DNA of 9,512 nt from Dictyostelium discoideum. Its lineage: Eukaryota. The number at the start of each line of letters is the position of its first letter. The first letter of the stretch is position 1. The DNA is taken from positions 1 to 9,512 of the forward strand of contig CH709158.1 in the NCBI GenBank assembly GCA_000004695.1, given 5' to 3'. The translations under genes and the position numbers were made by a program. A model generated the notes under the pieces. That model had not been told where the DNA came from, searched no databases, and was given only the letters and a program-made list of their open reading frames with translations. Shown here in pieces: positions 1 to 9,512 of the stretch.

Positions 1-230
1 GCATATTACATTACTAATTATAGTTGACACACATTTAAATAATATAATAATAATAATAATAATAATAATACTGTCGACTCATTATGAATAATATAAATAC
101 TAAAGAATAATTTTATAAACAATATTGAATATTATAAATATAAATTAATATTAAATAAAGATAACAAAGTATTATTCAATTATATAATTATTAATTATAT
201 ATATTTATAAAGCTAACAAGCTTTATTACA
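1..230 (+). repeat. 5' LTR (partial), ending with ATTACA.
   Basis: Near-identical to 4772..4998. The only differences are one G/A SNP (pos 76 vs 4846) and one extra AAT unit in the (AAT)n tract 46..70. Confidence 0.9.
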
Positions 231-232
231 TT

Positions 233-249
233 TGGCGACATCGTCTTTC
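233..249 (+). promoter_or_regulatory. Candidate primer binding site (TGGCGACATCGTCTTTC), 2-3 nt after the 5' LTR end.
   Basis: It begins with TGG, complementary to the tRNA 3' CCA, and sits immediately 3' of the LTR terminus ATTACA. I could not identify the cognate tRNA from memory. Confidence 0.45.
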
Positions 250-250
250 A

Positions 251-343
251 AAAAAAAAAAAAAAAAAAAATATACTATAAATATAAAGTTATCAAATTAT
301 TCAATCAATTAAAATTTTACATTAGATTAAATTTAATTTAATA

Positions 344-430
<87 letters not shown>
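251..430 (+). repeat. Oligo(dA)-rich leader of the retroelement.
   Basis: A-runs at 251..271 and 351..429. The second is about 80 nt of nearly pure A interrupted by g/ttt. Confidence 0.8.
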
Positions 431-431
<1 letters not shown>

Positions 432-605
432 TTTTTTATGAAAACCGTATTTTTTTCGGGTAATGGAAAGGGTTAATCATTCTTTAATTTCAACCACTAA
501 CTCTTATTAATTCATGGCGAGGAAATATCGAAAGCTGATATTATTAGAAAACTAAGAAACAATGCATTGGAATATGCCGCAACATTGGATACAGACTTAA
601 CAGCA

Positions 606-3600
606 ATGGAGATAATTGAAGATCTTAAAGATGCTTTTGATATTGGTGATAGTGATGATTTATCAGATTTAACAAAGTTAGGAGAATATAAATACAATAC
701 ATTAGATATATTAATTGGTAAATTTCTTTCAAAATGTTCAGCAGTTGATATTTCAGAAAAGTTTAAAATACAATTGTTTTATTCAGCTGTTGGTATTGAA
801 TTGGGTATTGAAATTACAAAATGTGCACCAAAATCATTAAAAAGAGCAATAGACATTGCAAAGTCTTGTGAAGATGGTTCAATTCGTATGAGAGGTAGAT
901 CAATGTATACTGGTCAATTGGTTGCAAAAACATTACAAGAATTTGGAACTCAAAAGTATCTTGGTTCTGGATCTGGTTATACAACATCACCACAGTACGT
1001 TACATCTCAAACTGAACAATCTACTGAAACTGAAGTATTAGCAACTCCAATTTATAAAAATCAAACATATTCACCACCACCATCACCTTATAAAGCACCA
1101 CAAAATCAAGTAAATTCAATCACAAAATTTTGTAAATATTGCAAAAAGAAAGGTCATGTAATTCAAGAGTGTTGGTCTAAAGATAAAAAGAATAATTATA
1201 ATGAGAATAAACAATCATATAATAATCATAGCACTAATGCAATTACAATGGTTAATGATAAAACGATTAATTCTATTGGAACTGATAGTATGAATGCAGC
1301 ATTATTAATAAATGATAAGAATGTTAGAGGTTTAGTTGATACTGGTTCTTCTCTTACCATCATTTGGGAAAGTATTGCTAAAAAATTAAATTTAAAAGTT
1401 GAAGGTAAATCATTTTCAGTTAATTCAGCATCAAATAATGAAATTAAGATAGTTGGTAGTTGTGATACCATAATTAAATTAGGTAAAGCATCCGCAAAAG
1501 TTAATGTTAATATTGTTAAAGATAATGATACTTCAATCGATTGCATTTTTGGTGTAGATACACTTATTGGATTGAAATTAATAATTGATTGCAAGGAAAT
1601 GATCATTAAGAATCTTGAATTTAATGTTGGTACAAGATTAATCACCAGAGAAACCAAACCAATTGTTTGCAAAATTGATCTAAATATATTAGAAAAAGTA
1701 TCAAAACCAATGGCTGAGTTATTAATCAAAAATGAAGAGATTTTTGAAACCAAATTGTCAAAACCAGGATCATTAATAGATGTTGAACATTCAATTAAAT
1801 TAACTGATGAAAATGTTTCTGTTTATACTCCACCATACAAAACTAGTCCAGCTGATAAAGAATTCATTGAAGAATACATTAAAGATGCATTAGATAAAGG
1901 TATAATCGAGAAATCAGATTCATCACAATACGGTTCTCCAATAGTCTTATCCAGAAAGAATGATAAAATTAGATTTTGTGTTAATTATAAAAAACTAAAT
2001 GACCTCACAATTAAAGATAGATATCCACTTCCATTAATTTCTGATTGTTGGTATTATCTCAAAGATGCAAAAGTTTTCTCAAAAATTGATCTTACTTCTG
2101 GTTATTATCAAATCAAAATGAAAGAAGAGGACAAGGATAAAACAACCTTTGTCTCTCATATGGGTCAATTTAGATATGTTGTAATGCCATTTGGATTATG
2201 TAATGCACCAGCAACTTTTCAAAGATACATGAATGAATTATTAAAGGATGAATTAAGAAAAAGTAATATTGGGTTTATTGACGATTGTATAATTTATAGC
2301 AAGAATAATGAATATCATATTGAACATGTCAAACTATTATTCGAAAAATTCAAAGAAAAAGGTGCAAAGTTACAAATAACTAAATGTGAGTTTGAAAAAG
2401 AAGAGATCAAGTTTTTGGGATATATCGTTTCAAAGAATGGTATTACTTATGATAGTTCAAAGTTTAATGAATTATTAAAAACACCACCTCCATCAAATCA
2501 AAAAGAATTAATGAAATTACTCGGTACTGTCAATTACTTTAGAACATTCATTAAAAATTTCACTCATTTAACTTCATCATTTTATCCACTATTAAAGAAG
2601 GGTGTTAATTTCAAATGGACTGATGAATTGGAAAATGATCGTGTAAAATTATTTACTACATTAGCACAAACTAATCTTTTAAGTTTTCCACAAGATACAG
2701 ATGATAATGTTATTGAAACTGATGCTTCAATTATTGGTATTGGTGGTGTAATGATTCAAAATGGTAAACCAGTTTCTTATTATTCAAGAACATTAAACAA
2801 CGCTGAAAAGAATTATTCTGTTACTGAAAGAGAATGTTTGGCAATCATTGAATCAATTAAATATTTTAAATCCTATATCAATGGTAGAAAAGTAAAAATC
2901 ATCACTGATCATCAACCTTTGAAATATCTCTTAACTGGTAAATTTACTGATCGTATTACAAGATGGACTGTATTACTTCAAGAGTATAATTACGAAATTA
3001 TATATAGACCTGGTAAAGAAAACTTTTTAGCTGATGCATTATCAAGATGTCCAGATAGAGATCAACAGCCAATTGATTGTGATATTCCAGAAAAGATATT
3101 TACAATTACTCACTATCCAGTAGCTTCACCATCAACTACAATTTTACCAAGAGTCTTACCATCAAGATCAAATCAAACATCTAATGTTTCACCAGCTACA
3201 ACAATTCAACCACCAAATTCATCAAGTTCAAATCAATCATCAAATATCCCACCAACAACAAACCAATCATCAAATATTACAAATCAACCAATAAATACTT
3301 CATCAATGAATTTAAATCAATCATTATCAAATCAAGCAACAACCGCTAGATTATTGAATAGTGTACCTATCTCAATCAACAATGATAATATTAATACAAC
3401 AACTCCACAATTTACACAAGAGTCAATAAGAAAAGAGTTGGAAAAAGAAAATTATTATAGAGCAATGTATAAATATCTTGAAGAAACAAGACTTCCAGAC
3501 AATGCACAAGCAGCAAGAAGAATTTTGTTCGAGTCTGAATTTTATTCAATGATTAATGGATTTCTTTGTCACGGTTTAAAACATACTTTATCAAGTAAGA

Positions 3601-4718
3601 AATCTCATTTTAAACATCTTCAAATTGTAGTTCCAAAAACTATGACTAAATGGATAATGGAAATATTTCATGATTCGCCACTTACTGGAGGACATTTTGG
3701 ATTATTAAAAACTGTCGCAAAAATCAAAGAAAGATTCTATTGGATTGGTATGATTAAGGATATAAAAGAATTTATCGATAAATGTACAACTTGTTTACAA
3801 ATTAAAAGAAAGTATGGTCCAAAAGAAGGTTTACTCATTCCAATTGAGATTGAACCTGAACCATTTAATACAATTGGTATTGATTTTATTGGTCCAATTA
3901 CAAAAGATAATGCTCAAGTTTATTTGTTGGTTGTTATGGATTATTTTACTAAATGGCCAGAAGTTTTCTTTACCCTTGATATGGAAGGGGAGACTGTAGC
4001 TCAATTATTGTTGTATGAAATCTATACTAGATATGGGGTTCCAAAGAAGTTGGTTTCTGATCGTGGTAAGAATTTTTTAAGTAATGTAGTCTCTGGTGTT
4101 AATAAATTATTCGGTGTTCACAAATTAACAACTACTGCTTATCACCCACAATGTGATGGTCAAACTGAAAATTTCAATAATACATTAATTAAGATGCTCA
4201 AAGCTTTTATTGGTAATGAATTGTATGGCAATTGGGGTGAATTATTAAGATGTGTTTTATACTCATACAGAATTACACCACATGTTTCAACTGGTTTTTC
4301 ACCCTTTTTCTTACTTTTTAATCGTCAACCAACTTTACCATTAGATACAACTTTAAATGTAAATTTTTATTCAAATTCACTAAGATTAGATTTCGCTGAT
4401 AATTATGCACAATCCGTAAATAATAATCTTAAACGTGCCTTTTGGTTTACAAAGAATAATCTCGATAAAGCTCAAGAATTACAAAAAACAAATTATGATA
4501 AAGGTCGTCGTCCAACAAATATTCAAACAGGTGATTTTGTTTATTTACATACACCATATTCACAAACTTCTATTGGTCCAAAGAAATTCTATAAACCTTG
4601 GAGAGGTCCTTTTAAAGTTCAAGAAAAAGTTAGCGATGTTACATTCAAATTAGATATGGGTAATCTTAGAGATCATAAAGTAGTCAATATTGAAAGATTG
4701 AAAAAAATTTTCAACTAA
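606..4718 (+). CDS. Gag-Pol polyprotein of the LTR retrotransposon. The frame is open from 501 and the ORF-track start is TTG 567.
   Basis: First in-frame ATG at 606 and TAA stop at 4716..4718. There are no internal stops or frameshifts between the gag and pol parts. Confidence 0.9.
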   Translation: MEIIEDLKDAFDIGDSDDLSDLTKLGEYKYNTLDILIGKFLSKCSAVDISEKFKIQLFYSAVGIELGIEITKCAPKSLKRAIDIAKSCEDGSIRMRGRSMYTGQLVAKTLQEFGTQKYLGSGSGYTTSPQYVTSQTEQSTETEVLATPIYKNQTYSPPPSPYKAPQNQVNSITKFCKYCKKKGHVIQECWSKDKKNNYNENKQSYNNHSTNAITMVNDKTINSIGTDSMNAALLINDKNVRGLVDTGSSLTIIWESIAKKLNLKVEGKSFSVNSASNNEIKIVGSCDTIIKLGKASAKVNVNIVKDNDTSIDCIFGVDTLIGLKLIIDCKEMIIKNLEFNVGTRLITRETKPIVCKIDLNILEKVSKPMAELLIKNEEIFETKLSKPGSLIDVEHSIKLTDENVSVYTPPYKTSPADKEFIEEYIKDALDKGIIEKSDSSQYGSPIVLSRKNDKIRFCVNYKKLNDLTIKDRYPLPLISDCWYYLKDAKVFSKIDLTSGYYQIKMKEEDKDKTTFVSHMGQFRYVVMPFGLCNAPATFQRYMNELLKDELRKSNIGFIDDCIIYSKNNEYHIEHVKLLFEKFKEKGAKLQITKCEFEKEEIKFLGYIVSKNGITYDSSKFNELLKTPPPSNQKELMKLLGTVNYFRTFIKNFTHLTSSFYPLLKKGVNFKWTDELENDRVKLFTTLAQTNLLSFPQDTDDNVIETDASIIGIGGVMIQNGKPVSYYSRTLNNAEKNYSVTERECLAIIESIKYFKSYINGRKVKIITDHQPLKYLLTGKFTDRITRWTVLLQEYNYEIIYRPGKENFLADALSRCPDRDQQPIDCDIPEKIFTITHYPVASPSTTILPRVLPSRSNQTSNVSPATTIQPPNSSSSNQSSNIPPTTNQSSNITNQPINTSSMNLNQSLSNQATTARLLNSVPISINNDNINTTTPQFTQESIRKELEKENYYRAMYKYLEETRLPDNAQAARRILFESEFYSMINGFLCHGLKHTLSSKKSHFKHLQIVVPKTMTKWIMEIFHDSPLTGGHFGLLKTVAKIKERFYWIGMIKDIKEFIDKCTTCLQIKRKYGPKEGLLIPIEIEPEPFNTIGIDFIGPITKDNAQVYLLVVMDYFTKWPEVFFTLDMEGETVAQLLLYEIYTRYGVPKKLVSDRGKNFLSNVVSGVNKLFGVHKLTTTAYHPQCDGQTENFNNTLIKMLKAFIGNELYGNWGELLRCVLYSYRITPHVSTGFSPFFLLFNRQPTLPLDTTLNVNFYSNSLRLDFADNYAQSVNNNLKRAFWFTKNNLDKAQELQKTNYDKGRRPTNIQTGDFVYLHTPYSQTSIGPKKFYKPWRGPFKVQEKVSDVTFKLDMGNLRDHKVVNIERLKKIFN
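1131..1172 (+). other. Gag CCHC zinc knuckle (CKYCKKKGHVIQEC).
   Basis: C-X2-C-X4-H-X4-C pattern at aa 189-202 of the ORF. Confidence 0.85.
1284..1601 (+). other. Aspartic protease domain, with active site LVDTGSS (DTG at 1338..1346).
   Basis: Retropepsin D-T-G-S motif followed by the hydrophobic stretch IIW, plus a later GVDTLIGL-like flap region. Confidence 0.85.
1749..2441 (+). other. Reverse transcriptase domain.
   Basis: Motif A KIDLTSGYYQI, the PFGL.NAP motif, and FIDD (a YXDD variant) at 2274..2285. Confidence 0.9.
2679..2936 (+). other. RNase H domain.
   Basis: IETDASIIGIGGV (catalytic D at 2721), TERECLAI (E around 2826) and ITDHQPL (D at 2907), in typical Ty3/gypsy RH arrangement. 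Confidence 0.85.
3117..3416 (+). other. S/T/N/Q/P-rich low-complexity linker between RNase H and integrase.
   Basis: About 100 aa (aa 851-950) dominated by S, T, N, Q and P, with SSNQSSNI-type repeats. Confidence 0.8.
3669..3794 (+). other. Integrase N-terminal HHCC zinc-binding domain.
   Basis: H1035, H1043, C1073 and C1076 (HDSPLTGGH...CTTC). Confidence 0.85.
3849..4346 (+). other. Integrase DDE catalytic core.
   Basis: D at 3882 (IGIDFIG), D at 4059 (LVSDRGKNF) and E at 4167 (GQTENFN). Confidence 0.85.
4524..4715 (+). other. Integrase C-terminal GPF/Y module. There is no chromodomain.
   Basis: WRGPFKV...HKVVNIERLK matches the GPY/F motif. It lacks the aromatic-cage spacing of chromodomains. 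Confidence 0.7.
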
Positions 4719-4730
4719 AAGGGGGGGATA
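4717..4730 (+). promoter_or_regulatory. Polypurine tract (AAAAGGGGGGGATA) abutting the 3' LTR.
   Basis: A pure purine run overlaps the stop codon and is directly followed by the LTR start TGTAAT at 4731. Confidence 0.85.
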
Positions 4731-4998
4731 TGTAATAAAGTTACTCTATAAAATTAATAGATATTAAATATGCATATTACATTACTAATTATAGTTGACA
4801 CACATTTAAATAATATAATAATAATAATAATAATAATACTGTCAACTCATTATGAATAATATAAATACTAAAGAATAATTTTATAAACAATATTGAATAT
4901 TATAAATATAAATTAATATTAAATAAAGATAACAAAGTATTATTCAATTATATAATTATTAATTATATATATTTATAAAGCTAACAAGCTTTATTACA
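4731..4998 (+). repeat. 3' LTR (TGTAAT...ATTACA).
   Basis: It matches the 5' LTR. The 6-bp terminal inverted repeats are TGTAAT and ATTACA, and it contains (AAT)7 at 4817..4838. Confidence 0.9.
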
Positions 4999-5452
4999 TT
5001 TTGAAATATTTTTGAAATATTTTTGCACCATTACGTTTTATTTCCATTCCAAAAAAAAAAAACGTTTTATTTTTCATTGGGAAGAAACTAATAATTGTGT
5101 TATCCAATTCAAAAAAGTATTTTTCATTTAAATTATTTTTTTTATATAATTCTACAGTATTTCATGAATGTTCATTTTTATTCTTTATTATTTTTTTTTT
5201 TTTAATTTTTAATTTTTTTTTTTTTTTTTTTTGAAAATTAAAATCAAAACCAAGATATTTTTTTTTTTTTCTTCCCTTATTTTTTTTTTTTTATTTTTAT
5301 AACTATTCTTTAATAGAATTCTTTTTTTAAAAAAAAAGAACACCATGGAAGCTTTTTTGTTTTTTTTTTAAAAATGGATATAAATTATTATTTTTTTTTT
5401 TTAAAAAAATAAAACAAGATAATATCCAAAAATAAATAAAACAGAAAAAAAA

Positions 5453-6666: not shown

Positions 6667-6918
6667 TCATTTTCTTTTGGCACATAATCTAACAACTTTT
6701 CCATCTATATACTGAAGATTTGTTAATAATTCAGTTCTTTCTTTAAAACGATTTTTTTTTACGATTTTTTCTTTACAGTCAGCTGTACATACACAAGGTT
6801 CAAACTTGGGGAATTCATCTGGATCTGTTAATAGCCACATGTATTTACTCTTTTTTTCCTCAGCTTCTTCAATGGATAAATTTGAATGTGGGCACTTATT
6901 AGTAGTTCTTTCTTCCAT
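6667..6918 (-). CDS. Hypothetical 83-aa protein with a CPH...CVC..C cysteine cluster and a basic C-terminus.
   Basis: Clean ATG..TGA ORF on the minus strand with Dictyostelium-like codon usage. The coding-like composition contrasts with the AT-rich flanks. Confidence 0.45.
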   Translation of the reverse strand: MEERTTNKCPHSNLSIEEAEEKKSKYMWLLTDPDEFPKFEPCVCTADCKEKIVKKNRFKERTELLTNLQYIDGKVVRLCAKRK

Positions 6919-7167
6919 TATTTAAGTTGTAACTATAAATATGTTTGTGCGATAATGTTTTATTTTTAATGTTAGTAAAATAAGTATTAAAAAAAAATTA
7001 AATTATTATTTAAAAAAAATAGAAAAAAACTGTGGGTGTGGTGTTTTAATGATTCCAAAAAAAAAAAAAATCAATAATAAAATAAAAAATTTTATAAATA
7101 AAATCTTTAATCTTTTTTAAATTAACTCTTATATAATTATTTTGTAAATGGTTATTTCAAAATTAGA

Positions 7168-7415
7168 CCTAATGATCATGAGACCCTACGCTCTACCAAT
7201 TGTGCCAACCCGACATGTTGATATTTTTTGACAAAAAATGCTCAATCTGGTGTTATCCAATTCAAAAAAAAAAAGTTTCTTAATGATTTACCTTAGGATT
7301 ATGAGACCTGCACTATACCAACTTAACCAAACTGATATGTTGATATTTTTCCTTAGAAAAATGACTAACCAGATATTTTTTAATGTTGAAAAACTCAACC
7401 ATCTGGAATTCAAAA
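7168..7415 (-). repeat. Degenerate tandem duplication of two ~123-bp units, each carrying a tRNA-Met-like fragment covering the D-arm and a CAT anticodon arm.
   Basis: Minus-strand reads GGCACAATTGGTAGAGCGTAGGGTCTCATGATC (7168..7217) and GGTTAAGTTGGTATAGTGCAGGTCTCATAATCCTAAGG (7291..7334). Each is followed on the + strand by a shared GATATGTTGATATTTTT and a CTCAA..CTGG..TTCAAAAAAAA motif. No T-arm or acceptor 3' half is present. Confidence 0.6.
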
Positions 7416-7498
7416 AAAATTATAACCTTTACATCAACACCCCAAAAATTGAGGCTAATTCAATACCAACTACATAAGGTTAAGTTTAAAACAAAATA

Positions 7499-7545
7499 AT
7501 AAAAATTAATAATAATAATATTAACAATAATAATAAGAAATAAAA
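7499..7545. repeat. AAT/ATA-rich microsatellite-like tract.
   Basis: Imperfect (AAT)n: aataataaaaattaataataataatattaacaataataataag. Confidence 0.6.
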
Positions 7546-8249
7546 AAAATTTATTAAAAAACAATATCAAAACTCTGAGGCTTTGGGTTATATTATGGAA
7601 TTTCTTTTGGCAAAAAGAAAAAAAAAAAAAAAAATAAAATTCTAAGAAAAACTTACATAATTTAGAATAAGTAATTAAGAGATAATAGATAACACTATAT
7701 GTATGTTTTAGTGTAAAATTTCTTTTATAACCTTTAATTAAAATTTTTATTTTTCTCACCATTTTTCGTTTTTTCAAAAAAACTTAAAATGCATAATTTG
7801 GATAGTCTTTATTTGAAAGTAAAAAACCAGGAATGATAAGAAAAATAAAAATTTAAAATAAAGATTATAAAAAATAATTAACACACCAAAACATACCATA
7901 TGTTATTTATTATCTCTTAATTATTTACTTAATCTAATAGATATTCTAACAAAACATTTAAAAATAATTAGTTATGAAATACAAATATATGAATTAAATA
8001 TATGTTTAGAAATAAAACAAATAATTAAAACAAATAAAAGATTTATTATTGTTATGGAAATTGTAAAATAAAAACTGATGTTAGTCTCATTACAATTATG
8101 GGCGATGGTTTTTGCTAATAAAATTTAATAAGGCTTTAAAACTTTTTTTTTTTTTTTACATCTCTTTAAAAATTCCAATTTTCTTGCAACTTTCTTCCAA
8201 ATTTTAAGAAAGGTGATCATTTCCAGTATTTAAAATAAATTTCCATCAA

Positions 8250-8323
8250 GCCTTAGTAGCTCAGTTGGTACGAGCGTGAGACTGAAGATCTTAAGGTCGC
8301 TGGTTCGATCCCGGCCTGAGGCA
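8250..8323 (+). tRNA. tRNA-Phe (anticodon GAA).
   Basis: Acceptor GCCTTAG/CTGAGGC plus discriminator A. D-arm GCTC-AGTTGGTAC-GAGC. Anticodon loop CTGAAGA. T-arm GCTGG-TTCGATC-CCGGC (B box GGTTCGATCC). No encoded CCA. Confidence 0.9.
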
Positions 8324-9071: not shown

Positions 9072-9369
9072 TCAAAAGATCGAACAACCATCTGGTATCA
9101 CAAGATATATCAAAGCTGCAACACGTAGTGTCACTAAACACAAAATTCAACATGCAAAAAATGCAGATATGGCAACAACTATAAAAAATGCTCTCACAAA
9201 CCCAAATATTAACAAAAACTATCAACCACCAAAAAACAACATTAACACCCCACCAATCAACGAAATTGCAAATTCCAATCGCAATAATAACCCACTTCAA
9301 AATAGTGGTTCAAAAGCTACACTAAATGAATCACTTAATAATAACGGGAAAAACTCATTATCAATGTGA
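9049..9369 (+). CDS. Overlapping downstream ORF in frame +1 (N/P/Q-rich, 106 aa) within the same A+C-rich block.
   Basis: ATG at 9049 and TGA at 9367..9369. It overlaps the upstream frame by 23 nt. This layout fits either an ORF1/ORF2-type overlap or a frameshifted pseudo-ORF. Confidence 0.25.
   Translation: MITHNIVDQKIEQPSGITRYIKAATRSVTKHKIQHAKNADMATTIKNALTNPNINKNYQPPKNNINTPPINEIANSNRNNNPLQNSGSKATLNESLNNNGKNSLSM
9230..9345 (+). repeat. Left arm of a large imperfect inverted repeat (palindrome).
   Basis: The reverse complement of 9238..9345 matches 9398..9505 at about 92% identity. The mismatches are gaaccactattttgaag vs gaacaactatttggaag, gggtt vs gggct, and tgcg vs tgtg. Confidence 0.85.
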
Positions 9370-9397
9370 GATTTCATTATTGTTTTGGGATTGATTG

Positions 9398-9512
9398 TTA
9401 TTATTAAGTGATTCATTTAGTGTAGCTTTTGAACAACTATTTGGAAGTGGGCTATTATTGTGATTGGAATTTGCAATTTCGTTGATTGGTGGGGTGTTAA
9501 TGCTGCTTTTTG
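9398..9512 (-). repeat. Right arm of the inverted repeat. It runs to the window end.
   Basis: gttattattaagtgattcatttagtgtagcttttgaac... is the reverse complement of ...gttcaaaagctacactaaatgaatcacttaataataac. The spacer is 9346..9397. Confidence 0.85.

What the first reader, a model, noticed from the sequence alone, without database searches (positions are those of the whole stretch)
7168..7415. Tandem pair of ~123-bp units built around tRNA-Met-like anticodon-arm fragments
Two diverged copies on the minus strand resemble the D-arm plus anticodon arm (loop CTCATAA, anticodon CAT) of a methionine tRNA. Both lack the T-arm and acceptor 3' half. They are embedded in a duplicated unit that also shares GATATGTTGATATTTTT and CTCAA-CTGG-TTCAAAAAAAA motifs. 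This could be a tRNA-derived repeat or SINE-like relic, or a footprint of tRNA-primed reverse transcription such as a strong-stop DNA remnant. It lies 800 bp upstream of a real tRNA gene.
Basis: seen in the sequence. Interest (0 to 1): 0.5.

Follow-up and report, generated by a model that had tools for sequence, protein, structure and literature searches.

The report
Decayed tRNA-Met gene halves, duplicated
Two side-by-side copies of the front two-thirds of a methionine tRNA gene, one carrying the tail of a tRNA-targeting jumping gene (TRE5) just upstream, are dead leftovers in a Dictyostelium discoideum intergenic region and look like ordinary genome debris.

Summary
The window is a complete 9512-bp unplaced contig of Dictyostelium discoideum AX4. 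On the minus strand, 7336->7290 (unit A) and 7214->7166 (unit B) are positions ~1-48 of an elongator-type tRNA-Met(CAT) gene. They cover the acceptor 5' strand, D arm, anticodon arm and variable loop. No T arm or 3' acceptor strand is present anywhere nearby. The start-to-start spacing is 122 bp.

GTGTTATCCAATTC+A12 lies at 7250-7275. The same terminus ends six TRE5 copies in other Dictyostelium loci, always upstream of a real tRNA gene and in the same orientation.

Best model: a tRNA-Met gene was hit by TRE5, lost its 3' third, and the module (TRE5 tail/A-run, 5' flank, tRNA 1-48) was duplicated in tandem and drifted towards AT.

There is no support for a dispersed SINE-like family or for a strong-stop or primer footprint. 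No whole-genome search was possible. The feature is a new instance of known kinds and of low interest.

The parts
7290..7336 (-). Unit A: positions ~1-47 of an elongator-type tRNA-Met(CAT) gene. It has the acceptor 5' strand ATCAGTT, the D arm, anticodon stem-loop AGGT-CTCATAA-TCCT and AAGGT. It is 38% GC.
   Evidence: nhmmer tRNA-Met profile E=2.4e-8, profile 9-47. 39/47 identical to a real tRNA-Met gene (L015), with 7 of 8 substitutions GC->AT. Best phage hit is an annotated tRNA-Met gene, in register 10-47. Rfam tRNA model 14.7 bits.
7166..7214 (-). Unit B: positions ~1-48 of the same kind of tRNA-Met(CAT) gene. It reads GTCGGGT TG GCAC AATTGGTA GAGC G TAGGGT CTCATGA TCATT AGGTC. It carries one inserted G in the anticodon stem and G37. 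It is 51% GC.
   Evidence: nhmmer E=1.4e-8, profile 3-48. Profile of positions 1-27 alone gives E=0.014 in register. 41/47 identical to L015.
7337..7350 (-). 5' flank of unit A, AAAAATATCAACAT, directly upstream of position 1.
   Evidence: Identical in A and B. (C)ATCAA(C) sits at -12..-1 in 4 of 14 real Dictyostelium tRNA genes sampled.
7215..7228 (-). 5' flank of unit B, AAAAATATCAACAT.
   Evidence: Same evidence as for the flank of unit A.
7250..7263 (+). TRE5-family retrotransposon 3' terminus GTGTTATCCAATTC. Its truncated 5' end faces the 5' end of tRNA relic B, with the junction 35-36 nt upstream of B.
   Evidence: GTTATCCAATTCAAAAAA occurs twice in the window against 0 in 200 shuffles. 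It occurs in 6 TRE5 copies in L004-L009 and in none of 120 metagenome loci. Each of the 5 copies checked against a tRNA gene has its poly(A) pointing away from, and its 5' end facing, a real tRNA gene.
7264..7275 (+). A12, the poly(A) tail of the TRE5 fragment. It reads as T12 on the tRNA strand and forms the border between units B and A.
   Evidence: A-runs of 6-20 nt of varying length follow the same terminus in every TRE5 copy, and unrelated sequence follows them.
7407..7419 (+). AATTC + A8, the counterpart of the TRE5 tail/A-run in unit A. It is 8 nt (GGATAACA) shorter than in B and marks the upstream border of unit A.
   Evidence: A and B share T-run, GAATT and CCAGAT(G)GTTGAG. Tail-only insertions of 5-7 nt plus an A-run lie upstream of real tRNA genes in L006 and L008.
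7276..7289 (-). 14-nt filler (AAATCATTAAGAAA, followed by C and then the T-run) where the T arm of relic A should start. It may be a local repeat of the anticodon-stem 3' strand.
   Evidence: Read from the sequence. The Rfam alignment places 29 unmatched nt here in place of the T arm.
7150..7162 (+). GGTTATTTCAAAA, possibly a third, degenerate TRE5-tail/A-run border just downstream of relic B. Support is weak.
   Evidence: Read from the sequence only. The alignment is not significant. Homology to the paralogous locus L001 ends at about 7134.
8250..8323 (+). Intact tRNA-Phe(GAA) gene (context).
   Evidence: ARAGORN. Rfam 62.5 bits.
5079..5116 (+). Second, independent TRE5 tail fragment (GGGAAGAAACTAATAATTGTGTTATCCAATTC + A6). 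It is flanked by the target-site-duplication-like repeat TATTTTTCATT at 5068-5078 and 5118-5128 (context).
   Evidence: 92-97% identical over 36 nt to TRE5 ends in L004-L007. Sequence read.
1..4998 (+). DGLT-A Ty3/gypsy retrotransposon (context). The 5' LTR is cut by the contig end (1-230) and the 3' LTR is about 4732-4998. The ORF is 98% identical to Q9GQ51, with two in-frame stops near its start.

Best explanation
The locus is non-functional debris of one tRNA-Met(CAT) gene.

1. A Pol III-active elongator tRNA-Met gene once sat here on the minus strand. This is inferred.
2. A TRE5-family non-LTR retrotransposon integrated upstream of it. [quoted passage not shown] Only the last 14 nt plus the poly(A) were copied or have survived. 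The sequence and orientation are shown. That it is an insertion is inferred.
3. The gene lost everything 3' of position ~48, including the T arm and so the B box. The loss is shown. Its mechanism is unknown.
4. The module (A-run, TRE5 tail, 35-70 nt of flank, tRNA 1-48) was then duplicated head to tail at the DNA level. Unequal exchange or slippage between the A-runs that now mark each unit border is the most likely route. This is inferred.
5. Both copies have since diverged to about 67-75% identity by substitutions biased towards AT and by small indels. This is shown.

Without a B box, T arm or 3' acceptor strand, neither copy can yield a tRNA.
For: tRNA-Met origin and a common truncation point:
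- Searches show the origin. Both units stop at profile position 47-48.
- The scan that found the units also picked up the T arm of the real tRNA-Phe, and no other T-arm match appeared in the window.

Genomic rather than cDNA origin:
- The 14 nt upstream of position 1 are identical in A and B, and similarity runs to about -25.
- The flank resembles the ATCAA(C) 5' flank of 4 of 14 real Dictyostelium tRNA genes.

TRE5 tail:
- The 18-mer occurs twice in the window against 0 expected.
- It ends 6 TRE5 copies, and each of the 5 checked against a tRNA gene faces that gene's 5' end.
- The L004 copy has the target-site duplication GAAAGCAAAAGTG and a junction at -47 of tRNA-Gly.
- The neighbouring ORF fragments match a D. 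discoideum protein named reverse transcriptase by UniRef.
- Tail-only insertions of 5-7 nt plus A12-15 lie at -44 and -48 of real tRNA genes.
- The orientation and the 47+-3 bp rule are documented in PMC3159450 and PMC5391098.

Duplication after truncation:
- Both copies share the same end point, the same flank and the same T-run-GAATT-CCAGAT-GAG motif.
- A-runs sit at the unit borders.

Decay: 7 of 8 substitutions in A are GC->AT, and A is 38% GC against 52% in a real gene.

No dispersal was seen in about 200 kb of Dictyostelium loci.
Against: - The TRE5 junction in unit B is at -36, not at the modal 47+-3. It falls within the experimental range of 23-181 and just outside the reference-genome range of 37-211.
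- No target-site duplication can be recognised.
- The last copy (B) is not followed by the missing tRNA 3' part, so truncation must have preceded the duplication, and how it happened is unexplained.
- The host's own tRNA-Met genes could not be fetched, so the parent gene is not identified.
- Only about 0.6% of the genome was sampled for other copies.
- The reference tRNA-Met genes were selected with a 20-mer from unit A.
Confidence: 0.6

Rival explanations
1. Each unit is an independent retro-copy made by the TRE5 machinery. A transcript started on the antisense strand inside a tRNA-Met gene. It ran through the 5' flank into a tail-only TRE5 fragment and its poly(A) site (5' transduction). It was then reverse-transcribed and inserted repeatedly next to itself.
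For: - On the plus strand each unit reads antisense tRNA 48->1, then flank, then TRE5 terminus, then A-run. That is the layout of a poly(A) retro-copy.
- The A-runs differ in length (12 and 8).
- Both units begin within about 12 nt of the same tRNA position.
- TRE5 elements are known to stack in tandem at one tRNA gene.
Against: - TRE5-A retrotransposition needs a hairpin inside the last 54-87 nt of the C-module. Here only 14 nt (B) or 5 nt (A) of the tail are present.
- TRE5 targeting needs a functional B box, and the relics have none.
- No target-site duplications are recognisable.
- No other copy was found in about 200 kb of loci rich in TRE5 and tRNA genes.
Confidence: 0.12
2. Two complete tRNA-Met genes once lay in tandem. 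Each was hit by its own tail-only TRE5 insertion, and each lost its 3' third independently.
For: - Tail-only TRE5 insertions are common; 2 of 14 sampled tRNA genes carry one.
- The tail in A (AATTC) differs in length from that in B (14 nt).
- TRE5 needs an active gene as a target.
Against: - The starts are only 122 bp apart. Once the TRE5 tail, A-run and a target-site duplication are subtracted, there is no room for the 3' third of gene A, a terminator and the flank of gene B.
- Both relics stop at the same tRNA position.
- Both share flank motifs on either side of the tail. One ancestral truncated module explains this more simply.
Confidence: 0.12
3. The units belong to a dispersed tRNA-derived SINE-like family.
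For: They have a tRNA-derived head and a 3' tail shared with a LINE-like partner (TRE5), as SINEs do.
Against: - The tRNA head is antisense to the poly(A) strand.
- There is no B box.
- No other copy appeared in about 200 kb of Dictyostelium loci.
- The protein search with the overlapping 79-aa ORF gave only one weak, unrelated repeat protein.
Confidence: 0.03
4. The units are expressed short Pol III genes, that is, genes for tRNA 5' halves or another non-coding RNA. They would use the A box and the T-run 15 nt after relic A as terminator.
For: Unit A keeps a good A box (TGGTTAAGTTGGTA), has a conserved 5' flank and is followed by T11.
Against: - There is no B box or external B box. Real genes in these loci have GGTTCGATTC-like boxes downstream.
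- B has only T4 downstream.
- Substitutions follow the neutral AT drift and break stem pairs.
- No Rfam family matches.
Confidence: 0.03
5. The units are a footprint of tRNA-primed reverse transcription: strong-stop DNA or a primer-binding-site remnant of an LTR element such as the neighbouring DGLT-A.
For: A DGLT-A element lies 2.2 kb away.
Against: - The relics hold tRNA positions 1-48, not the 3' end used as primer.
- They carry genomic 5' flank.
- No LTR sequence adjoins them.
- The primer-binding-site-like sequence of DGLT-A at 231-245 is different.
Confidence: 0.01

Closest known systems
Eukaryotic elongator tRNA-Met(CAT) gene, as a truncated pseudogene or gene relic
   Same: Positions 1-48 align in register, covering the A-box region, D arm, anticodon stem AGGT/TCCT with the U31-U39 mismatch, loop CTCATAA and AAGGT(C). 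Identity to a real gene is 83-87%. The 5' flank is typical of a tRNA gene.
   Different: There is no T arm, B box or 3' acceptor strand. ARAGORN does not call either unit, and the Rfam score is below threshold. B has G37 and an extra G in the stem. A has drifted to 38% GC.
TRE5 family of tRNA-gene-targeted non-LTR retrotransposons of D. discoideum (TRE5-A/-B/-C; formerly DRE)
   Same: The terminal G(C/T)GTTATCCAATTC plus poly(A) is identical to that of TRE5 copies in six other loci. [quoted passage not shown] Tail-only copies exist at real tRNA genes (PMC3159450).
   Different: Only 14 nt (B) or 5 nt (A) are present. The junction is at -36 instead of 47+-3. No target-site duplication is recognisable. 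The subfamily cannot be assigned.
tRNA-derived SINEs with a LINE-matching 3' tail
   Same: A tRNA-derived segment is combined with the 3' end of a LINE-like partner and an A-run.
   Different: The tRNA part is antisense to the A-run strand and lacks a B box. The units are tandem, not dispersed. No other copies were found in the sample.
Split or circularly permuted tRNA genes (Nanoarchaeum; Cyanidioschyzon)
   Same: A tRNA 5' portion is encoded without a contiguous 3' portion.
   Different: No matching 3' half exists anywhere in the window. The break is at position ~48, not in the anticodon loop. The sequences are decaying.

Membership tests
tRNA gene (functional tRNA-Met) | Complete cloverleaf found by a tRNA detector or covariance model above threshold | tested here: not met
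   ARAGORN finds only tRNA-Phe. Rfam RF00005 gives 14.7 bits for A against a gathering score of 29, and nothing for B.
tRNA gene (functional tRNA-Met) | T arm with the internal B box (GGTTCGANNCC) and a 3' acceptor strand | tested here: not met
   The nhmmer hits stop at profile position 47-48. No other hit to the 3' part appears in the window.
tRNA-Met-derived sequence (pseudogene or relic) | Significant in-register similarity to bona fide tRNA-Met(CAT) genes, including the CAT anticodon | tested here: met
   E=1.4e-8 for B and 2.4e-8 for A. 118 of 125 segments matching the anticodon-arm 20-mer are ARAGORN tRNA-Met genes.
tRNA-Met-derived sequence (pseudogene or relic) | Closest to the host's own tRNA-Met genes | not testable with these tools
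   No D. discoideum tRNA-Met gene lay in the 9 loci fetched. The AX4 assembly could not be reached.
TRE5 non-LTR retrotransposon (fragment) | Family-specific 3' terminus followed by poly(A) | tested here: met
   GTTATCCAATTC+A12 lies at 7252-7275 and is identical to 6 TRE5 ends. None is expected by chance.
TRE5 non-LTR retrotransposon (fragment) | 5' end faces the 5' end of a tRNA gene | tested here: met
   The tail is on the plus strand and relic B on the minus strand to its left. Five TRE5 copies in L004, L006, L007 and L009 have the same geometry (rule in PMC3159450).
TRE5 non-LTR retrotransposon (fragment) | Integration 47+-3 bp upstream of tRNA position +1 | tested here: not met
   The junction is at -36 for B and -70 for A. 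This is inside the experimental range of 23-181 bp but outside the modal window.
TRE5 non-LTR retrotransposon (fragment) | Target-site duplication of about 12-16 bp | tested here: inconclusive
   None is recognisable around 7250-7275. Duplications are clear for the copies at 5079-5116, in L004 and in L005.
tRNA-derived SINE | tRNA-related head with A and B boxes in the same sense as the 3' tail and A-run | tested here: not met
   The tRNA sense is on the minus strand and the tail plus A-run on the plus strand. There is no B box.
tRNA-derived SINE | Dispersed multi-copy family | tested here: inconclusive
   No other copy was found in 199,455 bp of Dictyostelium loci, and the protein search found none. 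The whole genome was not searchable.
LTR-retroelement primer or strong-stop footprint | Sequence of the tRNA 3' end adjoining LTR U5 | tested here: not met
   The relics are tRNA positions 1-48. No LTR similarity adjoins them. The DGLT-A primer-binding-site-like sequence at 231-245 is different.

The most novel reading that the evidence does not exclude
The unit is a small non-autonomous retro-copy born by 5' transduction. It would consist of an antisense tRNA-Met gene fragment and its flank fused to a minimal TRE5 tail, mobilised in trans by TRE5 and inserted repeatedly beside itself. It would be the first SINE-like, transduction-born element described in Dictyostelium. It would also show that far less than the C-module hairpin is enough for TRE5 recognition.
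Probability: 0.1. Interest if true: 0.45.

Novelty: new member of a known kind. Interest (0 to 1): 0.17.

Why it matters
The interest is mostly in annotation.
- tRNA-like half-sequences in Dictyostelium intergenic DNA can be read as relics of Pol III genes that were once targets of TRE5.
- Tail-only TRE5 insertions of 5-14 nt plus an A-run are a recurrent feature that is easily overlooked.
- Such relics mark former Pol III loci. They could be used to date tRNA gene turnover and TRE5 activity.
- If the units proved to be retro-copies, they would bear on the minimal 3' signal that TRE5 reverse transcriptase needs.

Tried and rejected
- **ARAGORN with relaxed thresholds, intron mode and mitochondrial mode.** It returned only noise and did not call the units.
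- **Permuted or split tRNA gene, with the 3' half upstream of the 5' half.** I considered this because of the TTTGAATTCC-like strings. I rejected it because no T-arm or acceptor match exists and the strings are the TRE5 tail.
- **A third copy at 7424-7485 and a partial fourth at 7100-7162.** The alignments are not above shuffles, the tRNA-Met profile finds nothing and the Rfam tRNA model finds nothing in 7385-7520.
- **Finding other genomic copies through spurious ORFs.** An exact look-up of the 79-aa ORF at 7238-7477 found nothing. An exhaustive HMMER search gave one weak hit (E=4e-5) to an unrelated tandem-repeat protein.
- **Orthologous or paralogous locus.** The 83-aa gene DDB_G0294240 has a paralogue in D. 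cf. discoideum (L001). Homology stops at window ~7134 and that locus has no array.
- **AX4 proteins and window ORFs.** They are not indexed for contig look-up.
- **Fetching a host tRNA-Met gene.** The nine Dictyostelium loci held Phe, Gly, Ser, Leu, Glu, Ile and Val genes but no Met.
- **Literature string search for the TRE5 terminus.** It gave only unrelated papers.
- They gave z = 6-13. I used this only as a lead and replaced it with tool-derived genes.
- **Extended similarity of the 49-nt spacer of B to a TRE5-B-like 3' UTR in L006.** I judged it unsafe beyond the terminal 14 nt, because the sequence is AT-rich and of low complexity.

Full report
**Source and context**

The 83-aa ORF at 6667-6918 (minus strand) is 100% identical to DDB_G0294240 of Dictyostelium discoideum AX4. 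That protein is recorded on a contig of exactly 9512 bp, so the window is a complete unplaced AX4 contig. Its GC content is 14-37%.

- Positions 1-4998 are a DGLT-A Ty3/gypsy retrotransposon.
  - Direct repeats 1-233 and 4772-5001 are 98% identical.
  - The 1383-aa ORF has protease, RT, RNase H and integrase domains.
  - It is 98% identical to Q9GQ51.
  - Two in-frame stops lie near its start.
- An intact tRNA-Phe(GAA) gene lies at 8250-8323 on the plus strand.

**The observation**

On the minus strand, 7336->7290 (unit A) and 7214->7166 (unit B) start 122 bp apart.

- They align over 72 columns, made up of 25 nt of upstream flank and the tRNA-like part. The score is 51, against 17.0+-2.6 for shuffles.
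- The tRNA-like parts alone beat all 500 dinucleotide shuffles.
- A global alignment of the whole units gives 67% identity, with several indels. These include about 31 extra nt in the spacer of A.

**Are they tRNA-Met?**

General detectors fail. ARAGORN calls nothing. The Rfam tRNA model reaches 14.7 bits for A, with 29 unmatched nt where the T arm belongs. It finds nothing for B.

Isotype-specific evidence is clear.

- I scanned metagenome contigs for the anticodon-arm 20-mer of unit A. Of the 125 matching segments, 118 are ARAGORN-called tRNA-Met(CAT) genes, giving 71 distinct sequences.
- A profile built from them hits only three places in the window:
  - the real tRNA-Phe, as a cross-hit;
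  - unit B, with E=1.4e-8 over profile positions 3-48;
  - unit A, with E=2.4e-8 over profile positions 9-47.
- Against the most similar real gene (L015), A is 39/47 identical and B is 41/47 identical. Seven of the eight substitutions in A are GC->AT.

The references were selected with part of unit A, so I ran two controls that do not share this bias.

- A profile of positions 1-27 only still finds B in register (E=0.014). In the window it is second only to the real tRNA-Phe.
- The best hit of unit A in 2.3 Gb of phage genomes is an annotated tRNA-Met gene. It is in the sense orientation and in register at positions 10-47.

Both units end at profile position 47-48. No T arm or 3' acceptor strand exists nearby. 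A third copy at 7424-7485 is not supported.

**The other shared motif is a retrotransposon tail**

Read on the plus strand, unit B ends with GTGTTATCCAATTC followed by A12 (7250-7275). Unit A ends with ...GGAATTC followed by A8 (7407-7419).

- The 18-mer GTTATCCAATTCAAAAAA occurs twice in the window, at 7252 and 5099. None is expected by chance.
- It occurs six times in the Dictyostelium loci fetched through DGLT-A and reverse-transcriptase fragments, and never in the 120 metagenome loci.
- In all these copies a conserved sequence precedes the A-run. The A-run varies from 6 to 20 nt, and unrelated DNA follows it. This is the signature of a poly(A)-tailed non-LTR element.
- In L004 the element is flanked by the target-site duplication GAAAGCAAAAGTG, and its 5' end lies 47 bp upstream of a tRNA-Gly gene.
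- In L006, L007 and L009 the same end belongs to elements whose 5' ends face tRNA-Leu, -Glu, -Ile and -Leu genes.
- The ORF fragment inside the L004 element matches a D. discoideum protein that UniRef names a reverse transcriptase.
- This geometry is the published hallmark of the TRE5 family: about 47+-3 bp upstream of tRNA genes, 5' end facing the gene, and tandems at one gene (PMC3159450; PMC5391098).
- Extremely short tail-only copies are common:
  - 38 nt at window 5079-5116, with TATTTTTCATT on both sides;
  - 57 nt in L005, with TTTTGAGATGACAAC on both sides;
  - 5-7 nt plus A12-15 at -44 and -48 of tRNA-Phe (L006) and tRNA-Leu (L008).
- In the window the tail at 7250-7263 is oriented the same way towards relic B, with the junction at -36.

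**Flank**

The 14 nt upstream of position 1 (AAAAATATCAACAT) are identical in A and B. They resemble the (C)ATCAA(C) box found at -12..-1 in 4 of 14 real tRNA genes in these loci. The relics therefore carry genomic flank, which a cDNA of a mature tRNA would not.

**Model**

1. An active tRNA-Met gene was targeted by TRE5. Targeting needs a B box according to PMC5391098, so the gene was complete at that time.
2. The 3' third of the gene was lost.
3. The module bounded by A-runs was duplicated in tandem.
4. Both copies then decayed towards AT.

The tRNA-Met origin, the common truncation point, the TRE5 terminus with its orientation, and the AT drift are shown. The order of events and the duplication mechanism are inferred.

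Weak points are the junction at -36, the lack of a recognisable target-site duplication, and the unexplained loss of the 3' third.

**Rivals**

- **TRE5-mediated retro-copy by 5' transduction.** It fits the plus-strand layout. It conflicts with the need for the C-module hairpin and for a B-box target, and with the absence of other copies in about 200 kb.
- **Two independent full genes.** They do not fit in 122 bp.
- **SINE family, strong-stop footprint, expressed half-tRNA gene and chance.** Each fails on a tested feature, as set out in the membership table.

**Limits**

- The host genome could not be searched as a whole.
- No host tRNA-Met gene was recovered.
- The AX4 assembly is not indexed for contig look-ups.

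**Verdict**

They are best read as duplicated, truncated tRNA-Met gene relics with TRE5 tail debris. This is an ordinary by-product of tRNA gene turnover and tRNA-targeted retrotransposition in Dictyostelium.

Noticed in passing
window 1-4998: A nearly complete DGLT-A LTR retrotransposon. It has both LTRs (the 5' one cut by the contig end), a primer-binding-site-like TTTGGCGACATCGTC at 231-245 and a polypurine tract AAAAGGGGGG at about 4717-4727. Its 1383-aa ORF is 98% identical to Q9GQ51, with two in-frame stops in the first ~55 codons. The literature says D. discoideum has no full-length DGLT-A copy (PMC5633606), and this one comes close.
   Followed up: partly
window 5067-5128: A 38-nt tail-only TRE5 fragment (5079-5116, ending GTGTTATCCAATTC+A6), flanked by the target-site-duplication-like repeat TATTTTTCATT. 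It lies 80 bp beyond the DGLT-A 3' LTR. Its orientation predicts a tRNA gene on the minus strand to the left, beyond the DGLT-A and the contig end.
   Followed up: partly
window 9230-9512: A near-perfect hairpin at the contig end, with 116-nt arms (9230-9345 and 9397-9512) that are 95% complementary and a 51-nt loop. It gives a weak chance-level hit to a plant miRNA model. It could be a real palindrome or an assembly or cloning artefact of this unplaced contig.
   Followed up: no
window 7668-7927: An inverted repeat with 107-nt arms that are 77% complementary and 46 nt apart. It lies between the tRNA-Met relics and tRNA-Phe. Part of it (7838-7961) is 72% similar to DNA 230-345 bp downstream of a tRNA-Gly gene in L005. 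It may be a small foldback or MITE-like repeat.
   Followed up: no
window 8143-8157: A T15 run lies 93-107 bp upstream of the real tRNA-Phe gene, followed by ACATCTCTTTAAAAATTCCAATTTTC. It may be the poly(A) end of another, different retroelement fragment facing the gene. It has no TRE5-type terminus.
   Followed up: no
window 7012-7068; L001 9744-9880: The promoter region of the 83-aa gene DDB_G0294240 carries the motif AAAACACCACACCCACAGTTTTTTTCTA (read on the minus, gene-sense strand). In the paralogous D. cf. discoideum locus the homologous motif, AAAAACACCACA(C/T)(C/T)CAC(A/G)GTGTTTTTTCTATTTTT, is repeated three times in tandem.
   Followed up: no
L006 10551-10670: A TRE5-type element whose ORF2 C-terminus is only 63% identical to the others has a short 3' UTR. 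It shares just the terminal ~18 nt (AAATTGCGTTATCCAATTC) with the C-module-type ends. The terminal 17-18 nt therefore seem to be what is conserved across TRE5 subfamilies, and this copy may be TRE5-B.
   Followed up: partly
P0113: The only protein hit to the spurious 79-aa ORF is a 268-aa translation of a ~53-aa tandem repeat (YYLRIITEALWKLSH...) from an unknown source. It may be another tRNA-derived repeat read in antisense.
   Followed up: no
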